Assembly (NCBI GenBank): GCA_002422315.1
Contig: DIUJ01000068.1
Coordinates: 30,882-94,881, forward strand
Reading direction: 5' to 3'
From: Bacteroidetes bacterium UBA6161
Lineage (GTDB): Bacteria > Bacteroidota > Bacteroidia > NS11-12g > UBA955
DNA: 64,000 nt
The position numbers were made by a program, and so were the translations under genes. The notes below the pieces were generated by a model. It was not told the DNA's origin and did no database searches. It saw only the letters and a list, made by a program, of their open reading frames with translations. Of this stretch, positions 18 to 25,518 are shown piece by piece; within the stretch, counting starts at the first letter, position 1, and each line of letters opens with the position of its first letter.

Positions 18-359
18 GTGCTCTTTCATCATTTTCCCCATTTAGACAAAAAAGCAGCTAAAAAGAGAGAATCTAGGCAGTTTACTATGTTTGACAAGCA
101 GGTAGAAGCTAAACTAAATTGGAAATTAGAAACAATAAGTTTAATTGAGCTTGGAGCAGCACTTTCAGAAGTAAATGCTTTTGGAAGTAAAACCACTAGA
201 AAAGAGATTTGGGAGGCATTGTCAGTGGCCTTTAATGTGAATTTAGAAAGACCAGAAAGTGCCCTTAGCCAATTAAAGCACCGAAAAATAAATCCAACAC
301 GTTTTCTCGATACCCTCAGATATTCAATGATTAAGCTTATTGATAAGAGCCTAGACTAA
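18..359 (+). CDS. hypothetical protein
   Basis: Intact 113-aa ORF directly upstream of the Xis-like HTH gene. No recognisable motif. Confidence 0.35.
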   Translation: MLFHHFPHLDKKAAKKRESRQFTMFDKQVEAKLNWKLETISLIELGAALSEVNAFGSKTTRKEIWEALSVAFNVNLERPESALSQLKHRKINPTRFLDTLRYSMIKLIDKSLD

Positions 360-447
360 AATAAATCGTTAATGAGTCATTAGTGAGTCATTAATTCATT
401 TTTTCGGCAACCCATAGTCTTGCAATCACAAAATAATTGAAAAACGT

Positions 448-756
448 ATGGAAATTATCACAATGGAAAGCAATGCCTACAAGCTCCTGATTCAGAAGCT
501 CGACGAGGTACATGCAGAACTTAAAAAGCTACAAGACCCTGCCAAGGAATTGTCTCGGGAATGGGTAGATGCCTATGATGTTATGAATATGCTGCATATA
601 AGCAGACGTACATTAAGCAAGTACCTGCAATCTGGAAAACTACAGTATTCCAAAATTCAGAACAAAAACTACTTTAGGTTGAAGGACATCGAGGAGTTTT
701 TGATGCATAACCACCGTTCACGTGCTCGTATTAATCAAAATCATCATGGGGCTTAA
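448..756 (+). CDS. helix-turn-helix DNA-binding protein, excisionase/MerR-like (mobile-element Xis-like)
   Basis: 102 aa. The central segment 'DVMNMLHISRRTLSKYLQSGKLQYSKI' is a classic HTH. Position upstream of a primase is typical of Bacteroidetes integrative/mobilizable elements. Confidence 0.55.
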   Translation: MEIITMESNAYKLLIQKLDEVHAELKKLQDPAKELSREWVDAYDVMNMLHISRRTLSKYLQSGKLQYSKIQNKNYFRLKDIEEFLMHNHRSRARINQNHHGA

Positions 757-2827
757 CAAAGAAGAAATATTGCATGCAACAGACCGAGGACTAAAGGTAT
801 TTACTTACTTTCTAAGGTCCAATTATCCTGGCATAAACAAGCCTTTCAAAAATCCTTTTTATGAGGATACCAAAGCTGCTTGCCATGTATATTTTGAAAA
901 AACCAGTAACCAGTATCGCTTTATAGATTTTGGAGACAGTTCCTACAACTGTGATTGCTTTGGTTTTGTGGCTTTGGTATTCAATCTGCAATGCAGCAAT
1001 GCTGAACATTTTTTGCAGGTTATGGAAATTATAGACCGTGAATTAGTGTTAGGTCTGGCAAACAACCACGATAAAATCAGAGAAATTACCAAGCAATTTC
1101 CGGAAGTAAAAGTGGCTTCTGAAATAGAGTCCTTAACTATTGCCGATATGAGAAACAACGTTTCTAAAAAATTCATACCTCCCATGTTTAAGGATTATTC
1201 TCAAACCGAAATTAATTTTTGGGGAATGTATGGCATAGATATGCAAACCCTAAAGAAATACAATGTGGTTTCTTTGCAGCGCTTTTATGGAACAAACAAG
1301 GATGGAAAAGAATACCAAATAGAAAGTGCAGTAGACGAGCCTATGTTTGGGTATCTTGGTAAACGCTTTTTAAAAGTGTATAGACCTCGCTCCAACAATC
1401 GCTTTTATTATTCCGGTGATTTGCACGAAGGCTATTGTTTTGGCTTGAAACAATTGCCATTAAGAGGCGATATTTTATTCATTACCGGAGGAGAAAAGGA
1501 TGTATTGAGTTTGGCTGCAAGGGGATTTAATGCTATTTGCTTTAACTCCGAAACCGTTACTATTCCTAAGAACCTGGTTAGGCGTTTGTCTTTTCGTTTC
1601 AAACATATTGTGCTGATGTACGACAAAGATGAAACAGGCTGCAAGGCAATGGAAAAACAGGTGAACCAACTCAAAGAGTTTGATGTAAAAATGCTGCTAT
1701 TGCCACTTAAAGGAACGCCTCAACAAAAGGATATTAGTGACTTTTTTAAAATAGGACATACTGCCCAGGATTTAATGAAATTATTTCGTGATTTATTGGA
1801 TGTACTGTATGAAGAAACCATGAGTTTGCTGCGAAGCTTTGAGGTGGACTATGACAAGGCACCGGCTGTACCCGAAGCAGTAATAGCTATAAACGAAGTG
1901 CCAATTGGATCTGCGGGTAACCTTATGGCAATTACAGGCCCCGAAGGCAGTGGCAAATCGAATTATTTGGGCGCTGTTTTGGCAGGAACCATGGTTGCGG
2001 AAGGAACAGAAGTAGATACTCTAGGAACAGAAATAGCTAGAAATACTACAGGCAAATCTGTGTTGTATTATGATACGGAACAATCCGAAGAGCAACTTTT
2101 TAAAAACTTACGTCAAATTGTAAGACGTTCGGGAGCATCGAGACCACCTTCCTGGTTCAAAACCTATGGTTTGGTGGGGATGGGAAGAAAAGACCGTTTG
2201 GTAAGCATTCTTCACTCCATGGATAGGTTTTATTATGAACATGGAGGCATTCACCTTGTAGTGATAGATGGTATAGCAGATTTGATAGATGGGGTAAACG
2301 ATGAAGAAAAGTCTGTAGCGCTTATAGACGAGTTGTTTCGGCTTGCCGGTATTTACAAAACGTGTATTTTGTGTGTATTACATTTAAGCCCAAGCGGCTA
2401 TAAGCTTAGGGGGCATTTGGGTTCAGAGATACAACGTAAGGCTGCCGGGATATTGTGTATAGAAAAGGAGGAGGACAAAACCCAATCCCTTGTGAAAGCT
2501 TTAAAAGTAAGAGACGGAAGTCCGTTGGATGTACCTCAAATAATAATGGCTTGGGACGATACACAAAAATTCCATGTATTTGTAGGCGAAAAAGACAAAG
2601 CTCGGCCACAAGAACGCAAGATTGAAGAGCTATCCGACATTGCACGTCATATATTTGAGCGAGAGGAAAGCCTAAACTACATGAAAATCATCTATGAGTT
2701 ACAAGAGCGACTTCATGTTAAAGAAAGGCAAGCCAAAAACTACCTTAAATTTATGCGTGACAACCACATTATCGAAGCTTTGCCAGGGGAAACCAATGTG
2801 TACAAACTGAAAATCCCACCCTTTTAA
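722..2827 (+). CDS. primase-helicase: Cys-cluster zinc-binding region + Toprim + C-terminal P-loop (RepA/DnaB-like) ATPase
   Basis: Cys cluster 'CHVYF...NCDCFGF'. Toprim-like 'ILFITGGEKDVLSLAARGFNAICFNSE'. Walker A 'ITGPEGSGKSNYLG' and Walker B 'HLVVIDGIADLIDG'. The true start is probably the internal Met (MGLNKEE, ~746). Confidence 0.65.
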   Translation: MLVLIKIIMGLNKEEILHATDRGLKVFTYFLRSNYPGINKPFKNPFYEDTKAACHVYFEKTSNQYRFIDFGDSSYNCDCFGFVALVFNLQCSNAEHFLQVMEIIDRELVLGLANNHDKIREITKQFPEVKVASEIESLTIADMRNNVSKKFIPPMFKDYSQTEINFWGMYGIDMQTLKKYNVVSLQRFYGTNKDGKEYQIESAVDEPMFGYLGKRFLKVYRPRSNNRFYYSGDLHEGYCFGLKQLPLRGDILFITGGEKDVLSLAARGFNAICFNSETVTIPKNLVRRLSFRFKHIVLMYDKDETGCKAMEKQVNQLKEFDVKMLLLPLKGTPQQKDISDFFKIGHTAQDLMKLFRDLLDVLYEETMSLLRSFEVDYDKAPAVPEAVIAINEVPIGSAGNLMAITGPEGSGKSNYLGAVLAGTMVAEGTEVDTLGTEIARNTTGKSVLYYDTEQSEEQLFKNLRQIVRRSGASRPPSWFKTYGLVGMGRKDRLVSILHSMDRFYYEHGGIHLVVIDGIADLIDGVNDEEKSVALIDELFRLAGIYKTCILCVLHLSPSGYKLRGHLGSEIQRKAAGILCIEKEEDKTQSLVKALKVRDGSPLDVPQIIMAWDDTQKFHVFVGEKDKARPQERKIEELSDIARHIFEREESLNYMKIIYELQERLHVKERQAKNYLKFMRDNHIIEALPGETNVYKLKIPPF

Positions 2828-3096: not shown

Positions 3097-3127
3097 AAAA
3101 CCCTGACTTATGTCGGGGTTTTTTGTT
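3097..3127 (+). terminator. rho-independent terminator-like hairpin + T-run after the primase gene
   Basis: 'aaaaccctgac ttat gtcggggtttttt': GC stem followed by a T stretch. Confidence 0.45.
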
Positions 3128-3312: not shown

Positions 3313-4878
3313 ATGAAACAGAAAAAAGAAGTTAAAGAAAAAGCAATTGAAGTAACCCTTTGGGAAGCTGCAAATAAATTGAGAGGAAGCGTAGAACCAG
3401 CCGAATACAAACACGTTGTATTGGGCCTGATTTTCTTAAAATTTGCAAGCGACAAATTTGAAGAACACCGATCCAAACTCATTGCCGAAGGCAAAGAAAA
3501 ATACATTGAAATGGCAGAGTTCTACAACATGAGCAATGTGTTTTTCTTAGAAGAAATATCCCGTTGGAGCTACATTGTAAAAAAGGCCCGTCAAAATGAT
3601 ATTGCTTTAATCATTGACACTGCACTTCACACAATTGAGAAAGACAATAAATCATTGAAAGGTGCATTGCCCGACAACTATTTTTCACGTTTGGGCTTAG
3701 ATAAAACCAAATTAGCTTCGTTGATTAGTGAAATTGATAGCATCAACACTTTAAAAGACAAAGAACAAGATTTGGTTGGACGTGTTTATGAGTATTTTTT
3801 GAAAAAGTTCGCAATTGCGGAAGGAAAAGGAAAAGGAGAATTTTATACCCCAAAAACGATTGTAAACCTCATTGCTGAAATGATTGAACCGTACAAGGGA
3901 ATCATTTATGACCCTGCTTGTGGTTCAGGTGGTATGTTTGTGCAGTCCATCAAGTTTATTGAAGCGCACCAAGGAAATACCAAAAACATTGCAATTTACG
4001 GACAAGAATACACTAAAACAACCTACAAACTGGCTAAGATGAACTTGGCCATTCGTGGCATATCTGCTAACCTTGGTGAAAAAGATGCCGATACTTTTGC
4101 AGACGACCAACACAAAGATTTAAAAGCCGATTACATCATGGCAAATCCTCCCTTTAATCAAAAAGATTGGAGGGGTGAAAATGAATTGATTGACGACCCA
4201 CGTTGGAGAGGTTATGATGTTCCGCCAAAAAGCAATGCGAATTATGGTTGGATTCTGAACATGGTTTCCAAACTTTCTGACAATGGTGTAGCAGGATTTA
4301 TATTGGCTAACGGTGCATTGAGTGGTGGTGGTGAAGAGTATAAAATTCGTAGAAAACTCATTGAGAATAATTTGGTAGAAGCCATTGTGATTATTCCCCG
4401 AAACACCTTTTATACCACAGATATAAGTGTTACACTTTGGATTCTGAACAAAAACAAAAAAGCAAGAACAGTTGAAATAAACGGTAAACAAAAAAACTAT
4501 CGCGACCGTGAAAAAGAAATCCTGTTTATGGATTTAAGGCGTTGGGGTACAGAATACGAAAAGCAATTCATTGAGCTTCTACCTGAAGACATTGAAAAAG
4601 TGGCTGACAATTACCACAACTGGCAACAAGTAGATTATAAAACAACCTACAAGGATGTACCAGAGTATTGCTACTCGGCTCATTTTAACCAAATACAAGA
4701 AAACGACTTTTCATTAGTGCCAAGTAAATACATTGAATTTGTTGACCGTGATAGCGGCATTGATTTTGATTCTGAAATGAAACGCATACAAAAAGATTTT
4801 AAAACCCTTTTGAAAGAGGAAAAAGAGTCACAAGAACAATTGATTAACGCTTTTAAAGTACTAGGCTATGAACTATAA
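3313..4878 (+). CDS. hsdM: Type I restriction-modification system M subunit (N6-adenine DNA methyltransferase)
   Basis: N-terminal HsdM_N-like region. 'DPACGSGGMF' SAM-binding motif and 'IMANPPFNQ' (NPPF, motif IV). Overlaps hsdS by 11 nt. Confidence 0.9.
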   Translation: MKQKKEVKEKAIEVTLWEAANKLRGSVEPAEYKHVVLGLIFLKFASDKFEEHRSKLIAEGKEKYIEMAEFYNMSNVFFLEEISRWSYIVKKARQNDIALIIDTALHTIEKDNKSLKGALPDNYFSRLGLDKTKLASLISEIDSINTLKDKEQDLVGRVYEYFLKKFAIAEGKGKGEFYTPKTIVNLIAEMIEPYKGIIYDPACGSGGMFVQSIKFIEAHQGNTKNIAIYGQEYTKTTYKLAKMNLAIRGISANLGEKDADTFADDQHKDLKADYIMANPPFNQKDWRGENELIDDPRWRGYDVPPKSNANYGWILNMVSKLSDNGVAGFILANGALSGGGEEYKIRRKLIENNLVEAIVIIPRNTFYTTDISVTLWILNKNKKARTVEINGKQKNYRDREKEILFMDLRRWGTEYEKQFIELLPEDIEKVADNYHNWQQVDYKTTYKDVPEYCYSAHFNQIQENDFSLVPSKYIEFVDRDSGIDFDSEMKRIQKDFKTLLKEEKESQEQLINAFKVLGYEL

Positions 4879-5989
4879 GCGTATAGGCGACTACATACAT
4901 TTAGTGGACAACCGAAATAAAGATTTAGCGGTTTCACTGCTAAGAGGTGTTTCAACAACAAAACAGTTAATTGAGTCTGTTGCGAATATGTCAGGAGTTA
5001 GTTTGCACAATTACAAGGTTGTTGGAAATCGGCAGTTTGTATATGTGTCTGACACATCAAGACGAGGAGATAAAATTGGTGTTGCACTGAATACTGGCGA
5101 ACCTTGCGTAGTTTCAAGTATTTACACAGTGTTTGAAACTGATGAAAATTATTTATTGCCTGAGTATTTGTTCATTTGGTTCAATCGTTCAGAATTTGAC
5201 CGATACACAAGATTTCATTCGTGGGGCAGTGCAAGAGAAACTTTTGATTGGGCTGATATGTGTGAAGTAAAGATTCCTATCCCAGCCATTGACGAACAAC
5301 GAAAATTTGTAGCCCTCTACAACGGTTTATTGACCAACCAAAAAGTGTATCAAAATAGCTTGGATGATTTGCAGTTGATTTGTGACACCTACATTGAAAA
5401 TCTAATAAAAATCGAAGAGCCGAAAACACTTGGAGATTATATTGAGCAATCGGATGAAAGGAATAATGATTTGAAAATTGATAACCTTATAGGAATAAGC
5501 GTGAATAAGGTTTTTATGGAAACCAAATCTAACAAAGATAGACTCGACTTGTCAAATTATAAAATTGTTCGTCCGAGAGAGTTAGGATATGTCTCGGTAA
5601 CCTCAAGAAATGGAGAGAAAATTTCAATAGCAATTTTAGATGGTGAAGCAGGTCTTGTTTCAAGTACTTATACAGTGTTTAGAGTTAAAGACACTTCATT
5701 TTTATTACCTGAATATTTGTTTTTGTTTTTTAAGAGAACTGAATTTGACCGTTACGCTAGATTTAACTCTTGGGGCAGTGCTAGAGAAACATTTGATTGG
5801 GTTGATATGTGTAATGTGAAATTACCCATTCCCGACATCAAAGTACAAGAAGCCATTGTTACCATTTACCATACCTTAGAAACTCGTAAACGGATCAATG
5901 AGCAATTAAAAAACACCATTAAACCACTTTGTCCTGTGTTGATGAGGGGTGTTGTGGGGAGTGTGAAACTTGAAACTGTAAATTCCTAA
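4868..5989 (+). CDS. hsdS: Type I restriction-modification system S (specificity) subunit
   Basis: Two target-recognition halves, each ending in a conserved repeat: 'FDRYTRFHSWGSARETFDWADMCEVKIPIP' and 'FDRYARFNSWGSARETFDWVDMCNVKLPIP'. Confidence 0.9.
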   Translation: MNYKRIGDYIHLVDNRNKDLAVSLLRGVSTTKQLIESVANMSGVSLHNYKVVGNRQFVYVSDTSRRGDKIGVALNTGEPCVVSSIYTVFETDENYLLPEYLFIWFNRSEFDRYTRFHSWGSARETFDWADMCEVKIPIPAIDEQRKFVALYNGLLTNQKVYQNSLDDLQLICDTYIENLIKIEEPKTLGDYIEQSDERNNDLKIDNLIGISVNKVFMETKSNKDRLDLSNYKIVRPRELGYVSVTSRNGEKISIAILDGEAGLVSSTYTVFRVKDTSFLLPEYLFLFFKRTEFDRYARFNSWGSARETFDWVDMCNVKLPIPDIKVQEAIVTIYHTLETRKRINEQLKNTIKPLCPVLMRGVVGSVKLETVNS

Positions 5990-8202
5990 TGATTACATCC
6001 ATAAACATAAAGAATGTAGCAACCTATGACCCAGTGAATGGGGTTGAAATAGATGGTTTAAAAAAAATAAACTTTATCTATGGGGCTAATGGATGTGGTA
6101 AAACAACTTTATCAAACTTTTTGCTGTATCCTGGTGATACGAAATTTGCTAATTGTGTTTTAAACTGGGAGAATCAAACTCCACTCAATACTTTAGTTTA
6201 CAACAAAGAGTTTAGAGAACAGAACTTTGGCAAAGGTAAATTGAATGGAGTATTTACACTTGGACAGGCTACAAAAGAGGAAATTAAGGTCATTGAAGAA
6301 AAAACAGATCAACTAAAAACGATAAAAGATGATGGGCAAAAAAAGCGTGAAACACTAAACGTTCAAAAAAAGAAAAGAGAGGATTTAGAAAAAGAATTTA
6401 CTGAAAGTTGTTGGAAGAAAATCTATAAAAAGTATGATCAAGAATTTAAGGAAGCCTTTGTTGGTTCAATGAGATCTGGAGAGTTATTCAAAAATAGGTT
6501 ACTTCAAGAATTTGAGAATAACTCTGCTACTCTAATAACTTTAGAAGAGCTAAGAGAAAAGGCGAAAACAATTTTTGGAGAAGTTCCACAAAATATATTA
6601 TCCATAAGCGAAATTAATTATGACAGAATAATTGAAATCGAAGGTAATACAATTTGGGCAAAAATTATTGTTGGGAAAGCTGATGTAGATATTGCCAAAT
6701 TAATTCAAAAATTGAATATAACCGATTGGGTCAACCAAGGAAGAACTTATATACAAGAAGAGGTTGAAACTTGCCCATTTTGCCAACAAAAAACAATTAC
6801 AGATGATTTCAAAAATCAATTAGAAAGCTTTTTTGATGAAACTTATTTAACAGATATAAAATCACTTAAAGAATTAAAACAAGAATACAATTCATTGACT
6901 CAAAACATTATCAATGAGCTAAACGAAATTGAAACAAACCAAAAGAACTTTACAGGCTCTAAATTGAATATAGATAAGTTTTCAGCTTATCTAAAAACAT
7001 TAATAAGTCAGATTACGACCAATAGTGAATTTTTAAACAACAAATTAAAAGAACCAAGCAGAAGTATTGAATTAATATCACTCAACGAACAACTTGACTT
7101 GATAAATGATTTAATAAAAATTGCCAATGCAGAAATCAAAAAACACAACGATATAGTACTCAATTTCAATACTGAAAAAAGTACATTGATACAATCAATA
7201 TGGAAATTCATTATAGAAGAATTTAGAAACGAAATTACAAAGTATAACACTGATAAAAACGGGCTAGACTCTGGAATTTTGGCATTACAAACTCAATTAA
7301 CTACTAAGCTCACTGAACACGGTACGTTAAAAGCTGAAATCCAAAATTTAAGCAAAAACGTTACAAGTATTCAGCCAACTGTGGATGAAATCAATAGACT
7401 TTTGAAATCCTATGGTTTTCTAAACTTTGAAATTGTACCCACAGCGGAAAATGGATTTTATCAAATTCAACGTGAAGATGGTGAAATTGCTGAAGACACT
7501 CTAAGTGAAGGTGAAATTACGTTTATTACTTTTTTGTATTATTTGCAACGTGCTAAAGGAGGTGAAACAGAAGAATCGGTTAATGAAGAAAGAATCTTAG
7601 TTATTGATGACCCCATTTCTAGTTTAGATAGTAATGTGTTGTTTGTAGTAAGCACATTGATCAAGGAAATAATCAAAACTGTAAAATCAGAGACGGGAAA
7701 TATCAAACAGATTATTCTTCTTACCCACAATGTTTATTTTCATAAAGAAGTTTCTTACGAAGGATTGAACAGAAAAGGTGAGAAATCTCAATTTTGGATT
7801 TTACGTAAGAATAACAAAGTTTCTACAGTCCATTATTATGCTGATAAAAATCCAATTCAATCATCTTATGAACTACTCTGGCGAGAAATCAAGGAATGGG
7901 AAAACAATTCAGGTATAACCATTCAAAATACATTAAGAAGAATACTTGAAAACTATTTCAGCATTTTGGGAAGTAAACGAGATGATGTTTTAATCAATAA
8001 ATTTTCAAATCAAGAAGAAAGAGAAATATGCAGGTCTTTATTGAGTTGGGCAAACGAAGGTTCTCATACGTTACCAGATGATTTGTTTATTGAAGCTCCA
8101 GACGGTACGATAACTAAGTATTTAGATGTGTTTAAGAATATTTTTAATCACACAGAAAATATTGGTCATTATAATATGATGATGGAATTAGAAAGCGATT
8201 GA
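5989..8202 (+). CDS. Rad50/SMC-like ABC ATPase with CxxC zinc hook (AAA_13-type), RloC/PrrC-like putative anticodon nuclease
   Basis: Walker A 'GANGCGKTT'. 'CPFCQQ' sits ahead of a long coiled-coil insert. Signature-like 'LSEGE', Walker B/D-loop 'ILVIDDPISSLD' and H-loop 'LLTHN'. C-terminal 'R-x3-E ... H' (TLRRILEN...EGSHTL) resembles the PrrC ACNase triad. Start overlaps the hsdS stop (TAATG). Confidence 0.55.
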   Translation: MITSINIKNVATYDPVNGVEIDGLKKINFIYGANGCGKTTLSNFLLYPGDTKFANCVLNWENQTPLNTLVYNKEFREQNFGKGKLNGVFTLGQATKEEIKVIEEKTDQLKTIKDDGQKKRETLNVQKKKREDLEKEFTESCWKKIYKKYDQEFKEAFVGSMRSGELFKNRLLQEFENNSATLITLEELREKAKTIFGEVPQNILSISEINYDRIIEIEGNTIWAKIIVGKADVDIAKLIQKLNITDWVNQGRTYIQEEVETCPFCQQKTITDDFKNQLESFFDETYLTDIKSLKELKQEYNSLTQNIINELNEIETNQKNFTGSKLNIDKFSAYLKTLISQITTNSEFLNNKLKEPSRSIELISLNEQLDLINDLIKIANAEIKKHNDIVLNFNTEKSTLIQSIWKFIIEEFRNEITKYNTDKNGLDSGILALQTQLTTKLTEHGTLKAEIQNLSKNVTSIQPTVDEINRLLKSYGFLNFEIVPTAENGFYQIQREDGEIAEDTLSEGEITFITFLYYLQRAKGGETEESVNEERILVIDDPISSLDSNVLFVVSTLIKEIIKTVKSETGNIKQIILLTHNVYFHKEVSYEGLNRKGEKSQFWILRKNNKVSTVHYYADKNPIQSSYELLWREIKEWENNSGITIQNTLRRILENYFSILGSKRDDVLINKFSNQEEREICRSLLSWANEGSHTLPDDLFIEAPDGTITKYLDVFKNIFNHTENIGHYNMMMELESD

Positions 8203-8239: not shown

Positions 8240-9109
8240 ATGAATAACAAAGACATGATATTTAACATTTACTACGTGAACTTCCCAAAAGTTTACGAAA
8301 TAAAAATGATGCTCAACAACATGATTCTTTCTGGACAACAAATAGAGAAAGGTAAAAGTGTTGAGGGAGAAGCATACTTAAAAACAAAATTGGGCTTCAA
8401 TATCATGGACATTTTTAAACTTGGTGATGCGGAAGCAGGTGGAAACATTAAGGGTGCTGGTTCTAAAAAAGTTTTAGAAACCTTTGAAATAAAAACAACT
8501 AAATCAGTAATTCTAAACGAAATTGTTGAAAAGAGTAATAAGATTTCGGATTTAAAAAATATCAAAGAAGGAGAATTGATTCAAATTAATAATGTAAATC
8601 TATCGCTTGAAAATGAAGCGGAACTCAGAACAGTAAAATTGTTTACAAGCGGTTCTTTTAAAGGTCTTTCATTACCAGATACAAATGGTCTTGATATTAA
8701 CAACCTTTTCAATTCCATGTTTAAAGATTATGCTTATAAAATGAAAGGTTCATTAGACGGTTCAGAGGATGATTTGCTTGTGAAAATACCTTTCACTTTT
8801 GAGAACGAGTTTGAAAGTTCTTATAGTGTTGACGACCTCTTTATTGGTAAAGTCTCAATAATAGGTTTATACAAGGGAAAAATAAAAATTGACCAACTCC
8901 GTAATTCATTTGAATTTTATAAAGATTTGGGCGAATTAACTCAACTTCAAAATACTGGTGTAACAAGTAAAAATGAAGAAATTCAAGACAGCCAGTATAA
9001 AAAGGAAGATGTAAAGGATAATTTTTTTGCCAGTTCAAAATTTAGCGATAAAGAATTCCATTATATAGATCTTTTAGCCATTGTTCAAAATATTAGCATT
9101 CCTGAATAA
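8240..9109 (+). CDS. hypothetical protein (unknown function, inside the hsd operon)
   Basis: Intact 289-aa ORF, 38 nt after the RloC-like gene and 9 nt before the AAA+ gene. No recognisable motif. Confidence 0.5.
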   Translation: MNNKDMIFNIYYVNFPKVYEIKMMLNNMILSGQQIEKGKSVEGEAYLKTKLGFNIMDIFKLGDAEAGGNIKGAGSKKVLETFEIKTTKSVILNEIVEKSNKISDLKNIKEGELIQINNVNLSLENEAELRTVKLFTSGSFKGLSLPDTNGLDINNLFNSMFKDYAYKMKGSLDGSEDDLLVKIPFTFENEFESSYSVDDLFIGKVSIIGLYKGKIKIDQLRNSFEFYKDLGELTQLQNTGVTSKNEEIQDSQYKKEDVKDNFFASSKFSDKEFHYIDLLAIVQNISIPE

Positions 9110-9118
9110 TATAAAATT

Positions 9119-10318
9119 ATGGAAAAGGAGTTAACATATTTTGAGCGAATAGATTTCAACGAGTTCAGAGAGCTAAAAGAATCTGAAGGTTTTCTTATTG
9201 AAAGCATTTCAGATTATATAAAAGACAAAAATTTAATCGAACAAATTGATCCGCTCAATGTAATAATTGATATAACCGCATTATCTGGTTATTCAGCATC
9301 AATGCAAGCCTTTTCTGAAGAATTATTAATACCCTTTGACGATTCTATATTATTTATTGCTGATATTAAACACGAAGAAACCTTCAACTACGAACTAAGA
9401 TATTGCTTTACAAAAATTGATTACTGGAAATCTAAAAAAGACAAATCAGACGATAAAGTTGAGAATACAAATAAATCAAAAAGTAAGCACAAGAAAATAA
9501 CTGACCTATCAGAGGATGAGTTAGGGGTCTTCTTTCAAGAATTTAGAAAAAGTCTTTATGGACATGAAAAATTCAAAGATGATTTTTTTGATTTAACCAA
9601 GACTTTTAGGGTTTTCAATGGAATTAGGGAGCATAAAATATTATCACTTTTTTTACTTGGGGAATCAGGCGTTGGAAAAACGGAAGTTGCTAACTCTATT
9701 TACAAATGCTTGGGCGGAATGAAGAAACTTGCTAAAGTTAATTTCGGGAATTACAGTAGTGAGTTTTCATTAAGTTCACTTATAGGAAGTGCGCGAGGGT
9801 ATATCGGAAGTGATGATGGAGAAATATTTATCAGAGTTAGAGATACTGATATAGGAGTAATATTAATTGATGAATTTGAGAAGTCAAATGCAACTCTTTT
9901 TAACTACTTTTTAGATGTATTGGAAAGCGGTAAACTAGTCAGCTCTTTAGCTGAAGAAATTGACTTAGATGGCTTCATAATAGTTTTCACTTCAAATATT
10001 AGCAAAGAGGACTTTTCAAATAAGATTTCTCCAGAGCTAAGATCAAGGTTCGACTACAAATGTCAATTTACCTTACTCTATAATGAGGACAAGAAAAAAT
10101 ATGTTGAATTTAGGGTGAATAGTATTGTTAGAAAGGTAAATGAGAAATATAAAATACAATTAGAAGAGAACTTACATGAACGTTTTTTAACTCAAATCAA
10201 TGTTTCTGATTACAATAACATGAGAGATTTAAATAAAAAAATCAAAACAGTATTTGTTGATTATGTTACAAGCGAGAAATTAGCATTGCATGAACTCGAA
10301 AAAGAAATAAGCGAATAA
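9119..10318 (+). CDS. ClpA/ClpB D2-like (AAA_2-type) AAA+ ATPase with unknown ~170-aa N-terminal domain
   Basis: Walker A 'LLGESGVGKTEVANS'. 'VILIDEFEKSNATLFNYFLDVLESGKL' parallels ClpB D2 '[27 protein letters not shown]', and 'IIVFTSN' parallels the ClpB sensor region. Stop overlaps the hsdR start (TAATG). Confidence 0.6.
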   Translation: MEKELTYFERIDFNEFRELKESEGFLIESISDYIKDKNLIEQIDPLNVIIDITALSGYSASMQAFSEELLIPFDDSILFIADIKHEETFNYELRYCFTKIDYWKSKKDKSDDKVENTNKSKSKHKKITDLSEDELGVFFQEFRKSLYGHEKFKDDFFDLTKTFRVFNGIREHKILSLFLLGESGVGKTEVANSIYKCLGGMKKLAKVNFGNYSSEFSLSSLIGSARGYIGSDDGEIFIRVRDTDIGVILIDEFEKSNATLFNYFLDVLESGKLVSSLAEEIDLDGFIIVFTSNISKEDFSNKISPELRSRFDYKCQFTLLYNEDKKKYVEFRVNSIVRKVNEKYKIQLEENLHERFLTQINVSDYNNMRDLNKKIKTVFVDYVTSEKLALHELEKEISE

Positions 10319-13300
10319 TGAAATTCACAGAAGAAAAATTAGAAAAGGCATTTGCTGAGTTACTGGGACAAGAAGGATTTCCGCACTACACAGGCATTAC
10401 AATTTCTCGTAATCCAGATGAAGTATTGATTGAAGAAGATTTACAAAACTTCTTATTGTCGCAATATGCCCATCAAGGTATCACGATCAATGAAACCAAA
10501 TCGATTATTCTTCAACTCAAATCCCTTTCTGCTACTGATTTATACGAAAGCAACAAAACCTTTCTTAACATGCTTTCTGACGGTTTTATTTTGAAAAGAG
10601 AAGACCGCAACCAAAAAGACATTTACATACAATTAATTGATTATACAGGATTAAACAAACACCGTCAACCTGACGAAGAACAATTAATTTCAGTAGTAGC
10701 AGAAGGCAAAGGGGAATACGGAAAAGACAATAACATTTACAAATTTGTTAATCAACTAGAAATTGTTGGAACGGAAAAACGTATTCCTGATGGCATTGTG
10801 TACATCAATGGTTTGCCTTTGGTGGTGTTTGAGTTTAAAAGTGCCATACGTGAAGAAGCTGCCATTTTTGATGCATTCAAACAATTAACGGTTCGTTACC
10901 GCAGAGATATTCCCGAACTGTTTAAATACAACGCTTTTTGTGTGATAAGTGATGGCGTAAACAACAAAGCAGGTTCTTTTTTTGCTCCCTATGAGTTTTT
11001 CTACGCTTGGCGTAGAGTAGCAGGTTTGGCAAAAGATGTGGACGGTATAGACAGTATGTTTACCCTTATTCAAGGTATGTTTGATAAAAACCGTTTACGT
11101 GATATTATCCGAAACTTCATTTACATACCCGACAGCTCAAAGAAAAACGAAAAAATTGTGTGTCGCTATCCACAATATTATGCAGCAAGAGCCTTGTATG
11201 AGAATATAAAACATACACAAAAACCTGAAGGAGACGGTAAAGGAGGAACTTACTTTGGTGCCACAGGTTGCGGAAAAAGTTTTACCATGCTTTACCTCAC
11301 ACGTTTGTTAATGAAAAGCGAATACTTTGAAAGCCCAACCATAGTTTTAATAACAGATAGAACAGACCTTGACGACCAACTTTCGGGGCAATTCACCAAT
11401 GCCAAAAACTTTATTGGAGATAGTACAATCATAAGTGTAGAAAGTAGAGCGCATTTAAGAGAATTGGTACAAGGCAGACAAAGTGGCGGGGTTTTCCTTA
11501 CAACGATTCATAAGTTTACAGAAGATACCGAATTACTTACCGAAAGAACCAACGTAATTTGTATTTCAGATGAGGCACACAGAAGCCAAACCAACCTTGA
11601 CCAAAAAGTAAAAGTCACCGAAAAAGGTGTTACCAAATCTTATGGTTTTGCCAAATATTTACACGATTCTTTACCCAACGCAACCTTTGTTGGTTTCACA
11701 GGAACACCAATAGACGCAACCCTTGATGTATTTGGTAAAGTGGTAGATGCTTATACTATGACAGAGTCCGTAAAAGATGAAATTACTGTTCGGATAGTTT
11801 ATGAAGGTCGTGCAGCAAAAGTGGCGTTAAAAAACAGTGAATTAGAGAAAATCGAAAAATATTACGAAGAAGCAGCAGAATTAGGAGCAAACGATTATCA
11901 AATAGACAAAAGTAAACTCGAAACAGCCAATATGTACACGATTTTGGGTGACCCTGACCGTTTACGTGCCGTAGCAGAAGATTTTGTGAACCATTATGAA
12001 AAGCGAATTTCAGAAGGAGCAACTGTAAAAGGAAAAGCACTATTTGTAAGCAGTAGTCGTGAAATCGCTTATGAATTGTACAAAAATATAATAGCATTGA
12101 GACCTGAATGGGCTGAAATTAGAGAAGCAGAAGAAGGTATTGAATTAACCGATAAAGATAAAAGGGAATTAAAACCGATTGAGCGTGTAAAAATGGTAAT
12201 GACCAGAGGAAAAGACGACCCAAAAGAACTTTGGGATATGTTAGGCACTTCTGACGACCGAAAAGAACTCGACCGCCAATTTAAAAATCCGAAATCGAAT
12301 TTCAAAATAGCCATTGTAGTAGATATGTGGCTCACTGGTTTTGATGTACCTTTCTTAGATAGCATATACATTGATAAACCGATACAACAACACAATTTAA
12401 TTCAAACCATTTCAAGAGTAAACCGAAAATTTGAAGGCAAAAACAAAGGTTTGGTAGTGGATTATATCGGCATCAAAAAACAAATGAATTTGGCACTTGC
12501 CAAATACAACAAAGGTGACGAAGACAACTTTGAAGACATTACACAATCTTTAGTAGTAGTTAAGGACCATTTGGATTTATTAGCCAAATTGATGCACACA
12601 TTTGACAATACAAAGTATTTCAAAGGAAGTACCATAGAACAATTAAACACCTTAAACCTTAGTGCTGAATTTGTGCAAAAAACCAAAGATTCAGAAACCC
12701 GTTTTATGGGCTTAGTAAAGCGACTAAAAGCCGCTTATGATATTTGTGCAGGAAGTGAAAAACTAACCCAAGCAGAAAGAGACTACACACATTTCTATTT
12801 GGCTATTCGTTCCATTATTTTCAAATTAACCAAAGGTAATGCACCCGACACGGCACAAATGAACGCAAGAGTTCGGGAAATGATAAAAGAAGCCTTAGAA
12901 AGTGATGGTGTGGAAGAAATATTCAAACTTGGAGACGAAAACGAAACCGAACAAGATATTTTTGATGAAGATTATTTAGCCAAAATCAACAAAATCAAAT
13001 TACCCAACACAAAAATCAAATTACTTCAACAGCTATTGGCGAAAGTAATTGGAGAAATCAAAAAGGTAAACAAAGTAAAAGGAATTGATTTTTCAAAAAA
13101 GATGCAAGCCTTAGTTGAACGCTACAACCAGCGAGATGAGAATGATATACTCAGAAGCGAAGTATATGAGGAAATGGCAGATGCCTTAACTGAATTAATC
13201 TGGGAGGTTCACAAAGAATTTTCAGCAGGAGACGCATTAGGAATTGACTTTGAAGAAAAGGCCTTTTATGACATTCTAAAAGAACTTTGTATCAAATACG

Positions 13301-13530
13301 ACTTCAATTACCCAGACGACAAAATGATTGAATTGGCAAAAGCCGTGAAAGACTTAGTAGATGGTCAAGCCAAATTCCCTGATTGGAACAAACGTGACGA
13401 CATCAAATCAGCTTTGAAAGTTGGACTCATTCTCTTGCTTGACGAATTTGGCTATCCACCTGTAGAGAGAGACGAAGTATATGTGGAGATTTTTGAACAA
13501 GCAGAAAATTTTAAAAAGAATAGGGGGTAG
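10318..13530 (+). CDS. hsdR: Type I restriction enzyme R subunit (DEAD/DEAH helicase-nuclease)
   Basis: N-terminal 'IPDGIVYINGLPLVVFEFKS' (nuclease/HsdR_N). Motif I 'GATGCGKS', DEAH 'ISDEAHRSQ' and motif VI 'QTISRVNR'. 1070 aa. Confidence 0.9.
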   Translation: MKFTEEKLEKAFAELLGQEGFPHYTGITISRNPDEVLIEEDLQNFLLSQYAHQGITINETKSIILQLKSLSATDLYESNKTFLNMLSDGFILKREDRNQKDIYIQLIDYTGLNKHRQPDEEQLISVVAEGKGEYGKDNNIYKFVNQLEIVGTEKRIPDGIVYINGLPLVVFEFKSAIREEAAIFDAFKQLTVRYRRDIPELFKYNAFCVISDGVNNKAGSFFAPYEFFYAWRRVAGLAKDVDGIDSMFTLIQGMFDKNRLRDIIRNFIYIPDSSKKNEKIVCRYPQYYAARALYENIKHTQKPEGDGKGGTYFGATGCGKSFTMLYLTRLLMKSEYFESPTIVLITDRTDLDDQLSGQFTNAKNFIGDSTIISVESRAHLRELVQGRQSGGVFLTTIHKFTEDTELLTERTNVICISDEAHRSQTNLDQKVKVTEKGVTKSYGFAKYLHDSLPNATFVGFTGTPIDATLDVFGKVVDAYTMTESVKDEITVRIVYEGRAAKVALKNSELEKIEKYYEEAAELGANDYQIDKSKLETANMYTILGDPDRLRAVAEDFVNHYEKRISEGATVKGKALFVSSSREIAYELYKNIIALRPEWAEIREAEEGIELTDKDKRELKPIERVKMVMTRGKDDPKELWDMLGTSDDRKELDRQFKNPKSNFKIAIVVDMWLTGFDVPFLDSIYIDKPIQQHNLIQTISRVNRKFEGKNKGLVVDYIGIKKQMNLALAKYNKGDEDNFEDITQSLVVVKDHLDLLAKLMHTFDNTKYFKGSTIEQLNTLNLSAEFVQKTKDSETRFMGLVKRLKAAYDICAGSEKLTQAERDYTHFYLAIRSIIFKLTKGNAPDTAQMNARVREMIKEALESDGVEEIFKLGDENETEQDIFDEDYLAKINKIKLPNTKIKLLQQLLAKVIGEIKKVNKVKGIDFSKKMQALVERYNQRDENDILRSEVYEEMADALTELIWEVHKEFSAGDALGIDFEEKAFYDILKELCIKYDFNYPDDKMIELAKAVKDLVDGQAKFPDWNKRDDIKSALKVGLILLLDEFGYPPVERDEVYVEIFEQAENFKKNRG

Positions 13531-13531
13531 T

Positions 13532-13897
13532 ATGGAAGAAATAGAAAAGAGTGAAAGCAATAAGTTAATCATTATAGGAAATGGTTTTGACTTGTCGTTA
13601 AGAATTAAAACAAGTTATAAAGACTTTTTACTTTGGTTGTTGCAGAAGTATATAAAGAAGACTTATGAAAAGAAGCATGCAACTCATCCAAAATATAAGA
13701 TAATTAATCAATTGTCTAAAGAAGAAGAAAGATTAAAAGTGAACCTCCTTTCAGAAAACGGAGCTAAAACAGTATTAGTGCAGATGGGAAACCACAATGA
13801 AATGACAACACTGCCTCAATCAATATTAGGTAAGACAGATGTTCCATTTTATGGGAATAGTCAAATGTTGTTACAGAAATCGGTGTTGGGAGAGTAA
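13532..13897 (+). CDS. AbiH-like abortive-infection protein, N-terminal fragment (possibly truncated)
   Basis: Starts 'MEEIEKSESNKLIIIGNGFDLSLRIKTSYKDFL', matching the conserved N-terminus of the AbiH family (LIIGNGFDLxHGLxTxYxDF). Only ~122 aa against ~300+ for full AbiH. The track ORF start (13481) overlaps hsdR, so the ATG at 13532 is preferred. Confidence 0.4.
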   Translation: MEEIEKSESNKLIIIGNGFDLSLRIKTSYKDFLLWLLQKYIKKTYEKKHATHPKYKIINQLSKEEERLKVNLLSENGAKTVLVQMGNHNEMTTLPQSILGKTDVPFYGNSQMLLQKSVLGE

Positions 13898-16347: not shown

Positions 16348-17373
16348 TTACTTATTGAGTGCTTGTTTTTCAGCTTCAACAAGTTCCTTCCATATTTGAG
16401 TATCAATTTTGCCACTCAATTTTTTTTCAGGTTCTTTTGCTGCAAATAAGCTTCTTTTAATGGCAGTAATCAATGTTTTTTGAATGCTGTAGTAGGAAAG
16501 ACCCAGGCATTCTTTTATTATTTTGTTCGCAATAATTTTTTTGTCAAATGAGAATACACCATTCTTCAGGGTTAATGCAATTAACTCTTGTATCTCCTTT
16601 TCATTCGGCAATTTAAATTCAATGATATTATCAAATCTTCTAATCAAGGCTTCATCAAGCATATCTTTTTGATTTGTAGCAGCTATAACGATACTACTTT
16701 GCGGTAGGTAATCAAAAAGTTGAAGAATTGTGTTTACAACTCGTTTCATCTCTCCGTGATCTTGGCTATAATCTCTTATTTTTCCAAGACTATCAAATTC
16801 ATCTAAAAATATGATACAATCTTCTATCGCAGCTTTCTTGAAGATTTTAGATAGGTTTTTGCTTGTTTCACCTAATTTCGAAGAAACAATAGCCCCGAGA
16901 TTAATAACAACCATCATTTTCTTTAACTCTCCTGCAATAACATAAGAAGCCAGTGTTTTTCCGCAACCGGAAGGTCCGTACATTAAAACTTTATTGGCTA
17001 CAGGCAACTCAAACCTTCTAAGGATTTCAATCTTTTGGTGTTCTTCAATGAAAAATTTTAGCTCGTTTTTTACACTTCCCTCTGCAATAATATTTTCAAG
17101 TGTATAGTCCGATGTTACTTTCTCAAGAATTAATTCAGCAATTTCTCTGTCATCCAACTTCTGGTAATAATTGTCAGAGCCAACTTTGGTAAGCGTGTTT
17201 GTGCCTTGCTGTTTTATTGCATCTTTCAGTATAGATTGGAGCTGAATTGCAAAATTTAGTTTTTTAGTTTTCTTTGAATGTTCAATAAGTTCATTGAGTA
17301 CAGACAATAGCCTTTCCTGGTCATTTTCAAGACCGAATTTGGCTATATCTTTTATGTATTCAAACTGACTCAT
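16348..17373 (-). CDS. classical AAA ATPase (SRH-containing, FtsH/CDC48-clade-like)
   Basis: Walker A 'YGPSGCGKT', Walker B 'IIFLDEFDSL', and SRH with Arg fingers 'IAATNQKDMLDEALIRRFD'. Convergent with the S8 gene and 3 bp from it. Confidence 0.75.
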   Translation of the reverse strand: MSQFEYIKDIAKFGLENDQERLLSVLNELIEHSKKTKKLNFAIQLQSILKDAIKQQGTNTLTKVGSDNYYQKLDDREIAELILEKVTSDYTLENIIAEGSVKNELKFFIEEHQKIEILRRFELPVANKVLMYGPSGCGKTLASYVIAGELKKMMVVINLGAIVSSKLGETSKNLSKIFKKAAIEDCIIFLDEFDSLGKIRDYSQDHGEMKRVVNTILQLFDYLPQSSIVIAATNQKDMLDEALIRRFDNIIEFKLPNEKEIQELIALTLKNGVFSFDKKIIANKIIKECLGLSYYSIQKTLITAIKRSLFAAKEPEKKLSGKIDTQIWKELVEAEKQALNK

Positions 17374-20068: not shown

Positions 20069-20170
20069 AGTTAGCTTGTTTCAAAAGTAGTGAATATAAT
20101 TTAAAAAATAAACCATCTCCTATTCTTTCATTGAATAAGAGATGGTAAAAAATAGCATATAGTTGCCTTT

Positions 20171-22849: not shown

Positions 22850-22992
22850 AATGACTTTTATTTAGTTAAACTCAACTGTCTAACAAAGACAGTAATTAAA
22901 ATTTCAAATTGAGAACTTATACTCCCAATTTGCTTTGTAATTTTAGTAGCTATAAGAATTGCACGAACCAAAGAAATCATGCATTTTATAAA

Positions 22993-25494: not shown

Positions 25495-25518
25495 ATTACA
25501 AACAAAGATAGCATAAAA

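What the first reader, a model, noticed from the sequence alone, without database searches (positions are those of the whole stretch)
5989..8202. RloC/PrrC-like zinc-hook ABC ATPase with a candidate anticodon-nuclease triad
The protein has Walker A, a CxxC ('CPFCQQ') ahead of a long coiled-coil insert, an ABC signature-like 'LSEGE', Walker B/D-loop 'VIDDPISSLD' and an H-loop. That is a Rad50-like head built like RloC. The last ~130 residues contain R-x3-E followed ~38 residues later by His ('RRILEN...EGSHTL'). This is close to the Arg-Glu-His ACNase triad spacing reported for PrrC. It would be a translation-targeting suicide nuclease embedded in an R-M locus.
Basis: inference. Interest (0 to 1): 0.6.

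Follow-up and report, generated by a model that had tools for sequence, protein, structure and literature searches.

The report
RloC-type anticodon nuclease in R-M operon

Summary
The ORF at 5989-8202 (+) is real and encodes 737 aa.
- Walker A at residues 32-39
- CPFC at 262-265
- LSEGE at 505-509
- LVIDDPISSLD at 537-547
- THN at 579-581
- R650-x3-E654-x38-S692-H693

The protein matches Pfam PF13166 end to end (E 1e-183). PF13166 is also the family of E. coli PrrC. It also matches PADLOC candidate PDC-S06 (E 3e-274). It is 48% identical over its full length to the Shewanella ANA-3 plasmid protein listed as an RloC orthologue in the founding paper (Davidov & Kaufmann 2008). JGI names 84%-identical homologues "wobble nucleotide-excising tRNase".

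Three alignment routes (hhalign, MAFFT E-INS-i, Pfam model coordinates) place H693 on PrrC His356. hhalign and MAFFT also place R650 and E654 on Arg320 and Glu324. The triad is 97-99% conserved and the CPFCQ hook 100% conserved across 143 divergent relatives. The AlphaFold model's best PDB matches are Rad50 and SMC heads.

The gene order is hsdM-hsdS-rloC-(PDC-M37A/B)-hsdR, which is PrrC's slot. Only about 15 of 81 related loci are linked to hsd.

Verdict: a new member of a known kind. The tRNase activity is inferred, not shown. Interest is low to moderate.

The parts
5989..8202 (+). rloC coding sequence (737 aa plus stop)
   Evidence: ORF list and translation. Pfam PF13166 full-length match, E 1.2e-183. 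PADLOC PDC-S06, E 2.7e-274, and PrrC model, E 7.6e-15 over residues 462-725. 48% identity to the Shewanella ANA-3 RloC orthologue.
6082..6105 (+). Walker A / P-loop, GANGCGKT (residues 32-39). T40 follows the motif where PrrC has its characteristic Arg.
   Evidence: K38 present in 142/144 relatives. BLASTP aligns it to the PrrC P-loop FNGTGKTRLS. Absence of the Walker-A Arg is described as an RloC trait in PMC3458546.
6274..7356 (+). Coiled-coil insert between the two halves of the ABC head (about residues 96-456)
   Evidence: The AlphaFold2 model has long helices at 96-149, 284-320, 328-354, 366-391, 393-411 and 413-456. The best Foldseek PDB matches are Rad50, SMC and SbcC heads with coiled coil.
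6772..6783 (+). Candidate zinc hook, CPFC (residues 262-265), near the middle of the insert
   Evidence: It is the only CxxC in the protein. CPFCQ is 99-100% conserved in 144 sequences, both Cys in 144/144. The ANA-3 orthologue's CPFC is aligned under GkaRloC's CAFC hook in Fig. S1 of PMC2610378.
7501..7515 (+). ABC signature LSEGE (residues 505-509)
   Evidence: 98-100% conserved. hhalign puts it on PrrC LSKGE.
7597..7629 (+). Walker B and D-loop, LVIDDPISSLD (residues 537-547)
   Evidence: BLASTP aligns it to PrrC FIDDPVSSLD. D540, D541 and D547 are 100% conserved.
7723..7731 (+). H-loop / switch, THN (residues 579-581)
   Evidence: H580 is present in 144/144 relatives. It aligns to PrrC His251.
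7786..8199 (+). C-terminal anticodon-nuclease-like domain (residues 600-737): a beta-hairpin followed by an all-helical bundle
   Evidence: The fragment alone hits PF13166 model positions 591-712 at E 2e-30. Secondary structure comes from the models. It aligns to the PrrC C-domain.
7936..7950 (+). R650-R651-I-L-E654: the Arg and Glu of the catalytic triad
   Evidence: They align to PrrC Arg320 and Glu324 by hhalign, HMMER and MAFFT. Conservation is 143/144 for R650 and 139/144 for E654.
8062..8067 (+). S692-H693: the His of the triad, preceded by Ser, within N689-x-x-S-H
   Evidence: Aligns to PrrC Ser355-His356. Pfam model coordinate mapping agrees. H693 is present in 142/144 and S692 in 141/144 relatives.
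3313..4878 (+). hsdM (type I methyltransferase), first gene of the operon
   Evidence: Pfam N6_Mtase E 2e-100 and HsdM_N. PADLOC MTase_I E 5e-148.
4868..5989 (+). hsdS (specificity subunit). Its stop overlaps the rloC start (TAATG).
   Evidence: Pfam Methylase_S. PADLOC Specificity_I E 2e-131. Junction sequence.
8240..10318 (+). Two further cargo genes in the same slot: PDC-M37A (8240-9109) and PDC-M37B (9119-10318, a ClpA/B-like AAA+ protein). They are probably independent of rloC.
   Evidence: PADLOC E 7e-107 and 2e-147. No M37A in any of 80 related rloC loci. Same low GC (30%) as rloC, against 36% for the hsd genes.
10318..13530 (+). hsdR (type I restriction subunit), last gene of the operon
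   Evidence: NCBIfam hsdR E 9e-133. PADLOC REase_I, 1262 bits. No convincing + strand terminator between hsdM and the end of hsdR; a strong hairpin lies at 3097-3122, just upstream of hsdM.

Best explanation
The gene encodes an RloC-family anticodon nuclease. This is an SMC/Rad50-like ABC ATPase whose head is split by a coiled-coil insert tipped by a CPFC zinc hook, fused at its C-terminus to a PrrC-type, HEPN-related, metal-independent RNase domain with the triad Arg650-Glu654-His693.

The mechanism is inferred by analogy with characterised Geobacillus and Acinetobacter RloC. The nuclease is held silent by the ATPase/zinc-hook module. A phage-associated cue, such as DNA ends or breaks or failure of the co-encoded type I restriction enzyme, drives ATP-dependent activation. 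The nuclease then cuts tRNA anticodon loops. RloC excises the wobble nucleotide, which resists phage tRNA repair. Translation stops and the infection aborts.

What is shown here: the gene, all motifs, family membership, triad equivalence with PrrC, conservation, a predicted Rad50-like fold, and operon placement. What is inferred: RNase activity, the tRNA target, the trigger, and any interaction with HsdMSR.
For: - **Family match.** Full-length PF13166 match at E 1e-183. PF13166 is also the only family precomputed for 120 PrrC homologues. PADLOC PDC-S06 at E 3e-274 and the PrrC model at E 8e-15 across residues 462-725.
- **Link to the founding set.** 48% full-length identity to Shewanella ANA-3 YP_863754 (746 aa, IS200/IS605 neighbour), which is entry 60 in Table S1 of the RloC paper. 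JGI names homologues of 70-87% identity 'wobble nucleotide-excising tRNase'.
- **Published definition met.** R-x3-E-x36-52-(S)H, a CxxC hook and 658-897 aa. Here the protein is 737 aa with an E-to-H spacing of 38 residues; the family range is 35-40.
- **Triad equivalence with PrrC.** hhalign and MAFFT place all three residues on Arg320, Glu324 and His356; the Pfam coordinate mapping confirms the His. These PrrC residues are strictly essential (PMC3025547), and the equivalent GkaRloC mutants lose activity.
- **Conservation.** The ATPase motifs, CPFCQ and the triad are near-invariant across 143 cluster representatives that are 35-55% identical to the window protein.
- **Fold.** The AlphaFold model's top PDB hits are Rad50, SMC, SbcC, LmuB and AriA heads.
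- **Context.** rloC lies in one co-directional unit, hsdM-hsdS-rloC-M37A-M37B-hsdR, with overlapping or short junctions. This is the slot PrrC occupies in E. coli. HsdM, HsdS and HsdR are the most recurrent neighbours of this subfamily.
Against: - No biochemical evidence is available.
- The C-domain alone gives only weak profile-profile statistics (E 0.14), so the placement of the His rests on agreement between methods and on conservation.
- Foldseek of the C-domain model (pLDDT 74) found no significant PDB match, HEPN structures included. H693 lies in a low-confidence loop.
- The strict HEPN R-x4-6-H motif is absent. The nearest Arg, R682, is 10 residues upstream of H693 and is basic in only 92/144 relatives. 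PrrC's essential His295 is Glu here.
- About 80% of relatives are not next to a type I system, so coupling to R-M is not a family property.
Confidence: 0.82

Rival explanations
1. A PrrC-style R-M guardian. The nuclease is kept silent mainly by binding the co-encoded HsdMSR complex and is released when a phage anti-restriction protein disables that complex. The zinc-hook/DNA-end switch of RloC would be secondary or unused.
For: The gene sits in the hsdS-hsdR slot with a 1-nt overlap to hsdS, as prrC does in E. coli. Type I genes are the commonest neighbours of this subfamily: 15, 12 and 12 of 81 loci for HsdM, HsdS and HsdR. The PrrC mechanism is summarised in PMC12707154.
Against: About 65 of 81 related loci have no detectable type I genes within 10 kb. 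The CPFCQ hook is 100% conserved, which argues that the internal switch is in use. The protein lacks PrrC's Walker-A Arg. This hsd is only 24-27% identical to EcoprrI. rloC has 30% GC against 36% for the hsd genes, which suggests cargo acquired later.
Confidence: 0.25
2. A DNA-sensing SMC/Rad50-like ATPase whose effector is a neighbouring gene product, as in Lamassu LmuB, PARIS AriA or Septu PtuA. Under this reading the C-terminal domain is a non-catalytic adaptor.
For: There are weak PADLOC hits to LmuB (2e-11) and AriA (3e-11). Foldseek also returns LmuACB and AriA structures. Two genes of unknown mechanism (PDC-M37A/B) follow directly.
Against: Those hits are more than 250 orders of magnitude weaker than PDC-S06 or PF13166. 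None of 80 relatives carries M37A, and no neighbour other than hsd is conserved. The triad is near-invariant, as expected for a catalytic site. PADLOC classes PDC-S06 as a single-gene candidate.
Confidence: 0.05
3. A housekeeping Rad50/SbcC-type DNA-repair ATPase with no role in translation.
For: The head, coiled coil and CxxC hook are Rad50-like, and Rad50 and SbcC are the top structural matches.
Against: There is no Mre11/SbcD-type phosphoesterase gene next to it. The extra roughly 140-aa C-domain is homologous to the PrrC nuclease domain. The gene lies in a defence island on a mobile-element-like region and has a patchy, horizontally spread distribution across phyla.
Confidence: 0.03

Closest known systems
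RloC (Geobacillus kaustophilus GkaRloC, Acinetobacter baylyi RloC; COG4694, 'wobble nucleotide-excising tRNase'; Davidov & Kaufmann 2008)
   Same: - ABC ATPase with a Rad50-like coiled-coil/CxxC insert.
- C-terminal R-x3-E-x36-52-(S)H triad.
- Size of 737 aa, within the published 658-897 aa range.
- No PrrC-type Walker-A Arg.
- 48% identical over the full length to an orthologue listed in the founding paper (Shewanella ANA-3).
   Different: - It belongs to a distinct, mostly Bacteroidota subfamily with a CPFCQ hook (Gka has CAFCG) and an invariant GHYNMMM tail.
- It lies inside an intact type I operon, which the founding paper found for only about 8 of 72 RloCs.
- Its activity, substrate and trigger are untested.
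PrrC (E. coli anticodon nuclease, EcoprrI locus)
   Same: - Same Pfam family (PF13166).
- Same ABC motifs (LSxGE, DDPxSSLD, TH).
- Same Arg-Glu-His triad positions.
- Same gene slot between hsdS and hsdR.
   Different: - PrrC is about 400 aa and has no coiled-coil/zinc-hook insert.
- PrrC has the PrrC box, the Walker-A Arg and the LARP motif KYGDSNKSFSY, of which only the Tyr (Y627 on Tyr294) aligns consistently here.
- PrrC's essential His295, Asn321 and Arg349 are not conserved as such: Glu628 and Arg651 replace the first two, and Arg682 sits one column off the third.
- PrrC nicks tRNA-Lys and does not excise the wobble base.
PADLOC candidate system PDC-S06
   Same: Full-length match to model PDLC04890 (E 3e-274) and to six further PDC-S06 models.
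   Different: PDC-S06 is a computational candidate label. In effect it is the RloC family under another name. No experimental test of PDC-S06 was found in the literature search.
Rad50 / SbcC / SMC heads, and defence ATPases LmuB and AriA
   Same: ABC head, antiparallel coiled coil and an apical CxxC. These are the best structural matches in the PDB.
   Different: They carry no fused RNase domain and work with separate nuclease partners (Mre11/SbcD, LmuA, AriB). Sequence similarity is limited to the ATPase motifs.

Membership tests
RloC | ABC-ATPase motifs shared with PrrC (Walker A, LSxGE signature, DD Walker B, D-loop, H-loop) | tested here: met
   All are present, aligned to PrrC and 98-100% conserved in the family.
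RloC | Coiled-coil insert with a central CxxC zinc hook splitting the ATPase head | tested here: met
   CPFC at residues 262-265 lies within the helical insert at about 96-456. Both Cys are present in 144/144 relatives. Rad50 and SMC are the top Foldseek hits. Zinc binding itself was not tested.
RloC | C-proximal Arg-x3-Glu-x36-52-His motif, with Ser often before the His (PMC2610378) | tested here: met
   R650-x3-E654-x38-S692-H693. It aligns to PrrC Arg320, Glu324 and His356.
RloC | Length of 658-897 aa, roughly twice that of PrrC | tested here: met
   737 aa. Relatives range from 692 to 794 aa.
RloC | Sequence homology to a protein of the founding RloC set | tested here: met
   48% identity, E = 0, over the full length to Shewanella ANA-3 plasmid YP_863754 / WP_011711575 (Table S1 entry 60). 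That sequence also matches the Q369M3_9GAMM row in Fig. S1.
RloC | Direct residue equivalence with GkaRloC Arg692, Glu696, His737 and Cys291 | not tested
   The GkaRloC sequence could not be retrieved. Only OCR text of residues 121-540 from Fig. S1 was available, and there the ANA-3 orthologue's CPFC lies under Gka's CAFC.
RloC | Wobble-nucleotide-excising tRNase activity, controlled by Zn2+ and a DNA-dependent ATPase | not testable with these tools
   Needs expression, tRNA cleavage assays and mutants.
PrrC | Compact protein of about 340-416 aa without a coiled-coil/zinc-hook insert | tested here: not met
   737 aa with an insert of about 360 aa.
PrrC | Gene embedded between hsdS and hsdR of a type I locus | tested here: met
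   The order is hsdM-hsdS-rloC-...-hsdR; compare E. coli locus L001. Two extra genes separate rloC from hsdR.
PrrC | Walker-A terminal Arg (GTGKTR), PrrC box and LARP motif KYGDSNKSFSY | tested here: not met
   The Walker A reads GCGKTT. Of the LARP region, only Y627 on Tyr294 aligns the same way in both hhalign and MAFFT. The PrrC box was not examined in detail.
HEPN superfamily (PrrC/RloC clade, Anantharaman 2013) | R-x4-6-H active-site motif | tested here: not met
   No Arg lies 4-6 residues before H693. R682 is 10 residues upstream and is basic in only 92/144 relatives; W687 is the invariant residue there. PrrC does have R349-x6-H356. N689-x-x-S-H matches PrrC N352-x-x-S-H.
HEPN superfamily (PrrC/RloC clade, Anantharaman 2013) | All-alpha HEPN fold | tested here: inconclusive
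Rad50/SbcC | Adjacent Mre11/SbcD phosphoesterase partner and no fused effector domain | tested here: not met
   No such neighbour exists, and a PrrC-like domain of about 140 aa is fused at the C-terminus.

The most novel reading that the evidence does not exclude
This Bacteroidota RloC may be a dual-input guardian, controlled both by its own zinc-hook/DNA-end switch and by the type I enzyme whose operon it occupies. The hsdS-hsdR junction may also be a general, swappable docking slot for abortive-infection cargo. In relatives that slot holds RloC together with PDC-M37A/B, RhuM, a Schlafen-like protein or AbiE. Co-translation with the R-M subunits would give such cargo a way to sense failure of restriction.
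Probability: 0.2. Interest if true: 0.5.

Novelty: new member of a known kind. Interest (0 to 1): 0.25.

Why it matters
RloC and PrrC are the classic examples of defence by cutting the cell's own tRNA. RloC has been characterised only from Geobacillus and Acinetobacter. No RloC or PrrC sequence relative turned up among solved structures in a search seeded with this protein (E up to 0.1).

This locus offers an intact RloC of a large, mostly Bacteroidota subfamily sitting in PrrC's position inside a complete type I operon. It is a natural test case for whether RloC can be guarded by an R-M enzyme in cis, a question left open in the original papers. For annotation, it shows that 'AAA family ATPase' and PADLOC 'PDC-S06' calls of this type can be read as RloC-type anticodon nucleases. 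It does not reveal a new mechanism.

Tried and rejected
- **Pairwise BLASTP against genuine EcoPrrC** detects only the P-loop and the Walker B/H-loop region, not the nuclease domain. Profile methods were needed.
- **A PrrC sequence recalled from memory** was not an exact database entry. It was used only as a probe to fetch a real annotated prrC, 99.7% identical, from plasmid CP057689. All alignments used the real sequence.
- **A second homologue search seeded with PrrC** returned only hits of 77% identity or more, which added little profile diversity.
- **hhalign in global mode** on the isolated C-domains failed.
- **HMMER alignment of the family HMM to Paracoccus PrrC** put the His three residues off, onto a second His in that sequence, in a low-confidence stretch.
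- **A PDB sequence search** gave no hit at E up to 0.1.
- **Retrieval of GkaRloC** did not succeed. Only OCR text of residues 121-540 exists in the paper's supplement.
- **PDC-M37A/B as functional partners of RloC** was rejected, because M37A is absent from all 80 related loci.
- **The sigma-70 promoter scan** is uninformative: 50 sites found against 41 expected, and the neighbouring genes (RteC, T9SS-sorted proteins) and closest homologues point to a Bacteroidota host, whose promoters differ.
Full report
**Observation**

The window has an ATG-initiated ORF at 5989-8202 on the + strand encoding 737 aa. A motif scan finds:

| Motif | Sequence | Residues |
|---|---|---|
| Walker A | GANGCGKT | 32-39 |
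| CxxC (the only one) | CPFC | 262-265 |
| ABC signature | LSEGE | 505-509 |
| Walker B / D-loop | LVIDDPISSLD | 537-547 |
| H-loop | THN | 579-581 |
| Triad Arg and Glu | RRILE | 650-654 |
| Triad Ser-His | SH | 692-693 |

Exactly 38 residues separate E654 from H693. R-x3-E occurs five times in the protein, so the pattern by itself would mean little. Family-level evidence gives it weight.

**What it is**

The protein matches Pfam PF13166 (AAA_13) from end to end: residues 10-719 against model positions 2-712 of 713, E 1.2e-183. No NCBIfam model matches.

In PADLOC it matches the single-gene candidate PDC-S06 over its full length (E 2.7e-274). It also matches the PrrC model over residues 462-725, from the ABC signature through the C-terminal domain, at E 7.6e-15. 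Hits to LmuB and AriA are far weaker, at about 1e-11.

A search of 5.8 billion proteins finds hundreds of full-length relatives, mostly from Bacteroidota. JGI names many of the homologues that are 70-87% identical "wobble nucleotide-excising tRNase", the COG name for RloC. A search of 1.84 billion cluster representatives finds 3916 relatives at E ≤ 1e-3 and 1207 at E ≤ 1e-30.

**Link to the founding RloC set**

Davidov & Kaufmann (PMC2610378) defined RloC by four features:
- PrrC-like ABC motifs
- a coiled-coil insert carrying a CxxC zinc hook
- a C-proximal Arg-x3-Glu-x36-52-His motif, with Ser often before the His
- a size of 658-897 aa

The window protein meets all four.

A tblastn search of plasmids found a 48%-identical, full-length match on the Shewanella sp. 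ANA-3 plasmid. That gene encodes 746 aa and lies next to an IS200/IS605 transposase. This matches entry 60 of the paper's Table S1: [quoted passage not shown]. Its sequence also matches the Q369M3_9GAMM row of the paper's Fig. S1, where its CPFC lies under GkaRloC's CAFC hook. Membership in RloC as originally defined is therefore well supported.

A PrrC sequence recalled from memory was not an exact database entry. I used it only as a probe to fetch a real, annotated "anticodon nuclease" gene from E. coli plasmid CP057689, where the order is hsdM-hsdS-prrC-hsdR. That real sequence has Arg320, Glu324 and His356 at the published positions. I also fetched three more distant PrrCs.

Pairwise BLASTP sees only the ATPase motifs. 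Three other routes gave consistent results:

1. **Profile-profile.** hhalign of a 144-sequence family alignment against the four PrrCs gives probability 96% and E 4.7e-9. It runs from the signature motif through "NTLRRILENYFSILG" against "TLLRNLYEKTASFLG", placing R650 on Arg320 and E654 on Glu324. With a low MAC threshold on the C-domains alone it continues to place S692-H693 on Ser355-His356. The statistics for that fragment alone are weak, E 0.14.
2. **Joint alignment.** MAFFT E-INS-i on both sets independently gives H580 on His251, Y627 on Tyr294, R650 on Arg320, E654 on Glu324, S692 on Ser355 and H693 on His356.
3. **Pfam model coordinates.** In the PF13166 alignments, PrrC residue 357 maps to model position 687. 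Window residues 639-719 map to positions 632-712 with no net indel. Both histidines therefore fall on position 686.

These PrrC residues are strictly essential for toxicity (PMC3025547). The corresponding GkaRloC mutants lose activity and toxicity.

**Conservation**

The 143 full-length cluster representatives are 35-55% identical to the window protein. Among them (144 sequences with the window protein):
- K38 142/144; C262, C265, S506, E509, D540, D541, D547, Q574 and H580 all 144/144
- R650 143/144, E654 139/144 (the rest Asp), S692 141/144, H693 142/144
- E-to-H spacing of 35-40 residues

The subfamily has further invariant C-domain residues: N621, P622, Y627, W631, N647, R651, W687, G691 and H727 in a GHYNMMM tail.

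There are also differences from PrrC. PrrC's essential His295 and Asn321 correspond here to Glu628 and Arg651. PrrC's Arg349 has no strict counterpart. The nearest candidate, R682, sits one alignment column off Arg349 and is basic in only 92/144 relatives. The strict HEPN R-x4-6-H motif is therefore absent, although N689-x-x-S-H mirrors PrrC's N352-x-x-S-H.

**Structure**

An AlphaFold2 model of the full protein (mean pLDDT 76.5) shows a split ABC head and long helices across residues 96-456. The CPFC lies near the middle of that insert. After residue 600 there is a beta-hairpin followed by a helical bundle. H693 lies in a low-confidence loop.

The best Foldseek matches in the PDB are Rad50, SMC and SbcC heads, followed by LmuB and AriA. 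This confirms the "Rad50-like head".

**Genomic context**

The genes form one co-directional block:

| Gene | Coordinates |
|---|---|
| hsdM | 3313-4878 |
| hsdS | 4868-5989 |
| rloC | 5989-8202 |
| PDC-M37A | 8240-9109 |
| PDC-M37B | 9119-10318 |
| hsdR | 10318-13530 |

Junctions are 1-nt overlaps or short gaps. A strong terminator-like hairpin lies just upstream at 3097-3122, and there is no convincing one inside the block. This is the slot prrC occupies in E. coli. However, this hsd is only 24-27% identical to EcoprrI.

rloC, M37A and M37B have about 30% GC, against about 36% for hsdM, hsdS and hsdR and 37% for the rest of the window. This suggests a cargo block inserted into the operon.

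I examined 80 related loci from GTDB genomes, at 55-87% identity and spanning several phyla:
- Eleven have the order hsdM-hsdS-rloC-hsdR with a homologous hsd.
- A few more have a distant hsdM nearby.
- About 65 have no type I genes within 10 kb.

HsdM, HsdS and HsdR are nonetheless the most recurrent neighbours. No other partner is conserved.

In the hsd-linked relatives, the space between rloC and hsdR holds RhuM, a Schlafen/AlbA_2-HATPase_c_4 protein, AbiEi/AbiEii, other ORFs, or nothing. This agrees with the earlier report that PrrC/RloC genes occur in R-M operons together with RhuM-like toxins. None of the relatives has PDC-M37A, so those two genes are probably an independent system.

**Mechanism**

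By homology with characterised RloCs, the ATPase/zinc-hook module keeps the nuclease silent. ATP hydrolysis stimulated by DNA, and especially by DNA ends, activates it. Hook mutations uncouple and activate it (PMC3458546). The nuclease excises the tRNA wobble nucleotide, a lesion that phage tRNA repair cannot easily reverse. A DNA-break inducer activates Acinetobacter RloC in vivo.

For this protein, all of that is inference. The anatomy, homology and conservation are shown. The activity, target tRNA and trigger are not.

The main live alternative concerns regulation, not identity. Because the gene is probably co-translated with hsdS, it may also be silenced by HsdMSR as PrrC is. The mostly R-M-free distribution of relatives and the invariant hook argue that the internal switch is primary.

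**Novelty and score**

This is a new member, from a large Bacteroidota-centred subfamily, of a family described in 2008. It is useful as a clean, intact example of an RloC in PrrC's position and for annotation, because PGAP labels these proteins "AAA family ATPase" and PADLOC labels them "PDC-S06". It reveals no new mechanism. Interest 0.25.

Noticed in passing
window 8240-10318 (+): Two genes match PADLOC candidate PDC-M37A (289 aa, no Pfam family) and PDC-M37B (399 aa, ClpA/B-type AAA+, which also hits Dodola DolB at 4e-28). They sit between rloC and hsdR inside the type I operon and share rloC's low GC (30% against 36% for the hsd genes). None of 80 related rloC loci has M37A.
   Followed up: partly
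loci L005-L022, L068 and L073, between rloC and hsdR: In relatives with the same hsd family, the slot between rloC and hsdR is variable. It holds RhuM, a Schlafen/AlbA_2-HATPase_c_4-wHTH protein, AbiEi/AbiEii, unknown ORFs, or nothing. It looks like a cargo hotspot within type I operons.
   Followed up: partly
window 13481-13897 (+): A 138-aa ORF overlaps the end of hsdR. It has an AbiH-like N-terminal stretch of about 50 aa and a BrxL/Lon-like C-terminal stretch of about 50 aa. It is probably a remnant or chimera of defence genes.
   Followed up: no
window 13909-16344 (+) and 16348-17373 (-): An IetS-like S8 peptidase (PADLOC 3e-38) and an IetA AAA ATPase (3e-70) lie directly after the R-M operon. 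They are convergent, not co-oriented as would be expected for a two-gene operon.
   Followed up: partly
window 18-2827 (+): An RteC fragment, an HTH_17 excisionase-like gene and a Toprim plus AAA_25 primase-like gene lie upstream. This is a module typical of Bacteroidota conjugative transposons, so the defence island may ride on an integrative element. A strong terminator-like hairpin at 3097-3122 separates it from hsdM.
   Followed up: no
window 17648-28026 (-): Four large proteins carry type IX secretion sorting domains (CHU_C or Por_Secre_tail). This is consistent with a Bacteroidota host.
   Followed up: no
L085 (Shewanella ANA-3 plasmid NC_008573) 110-10241: The RloC orthologue from the founding paper lies next to a complete type I system (hsdM, hsdS, hsdR) encoded on the opposite strand. 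The 2008 table lists only transposases as its neighbours.
   Followed up: no
P0225 (cluster representative), columns aligned to window residues 689-694: One relative has NGPRFI in place of the conserved [ND]-[ED]-G-S-H stretch (window: NEGSHT). This is an apparently degenerate active site in an otherwise intact protein.
   Followed up: no
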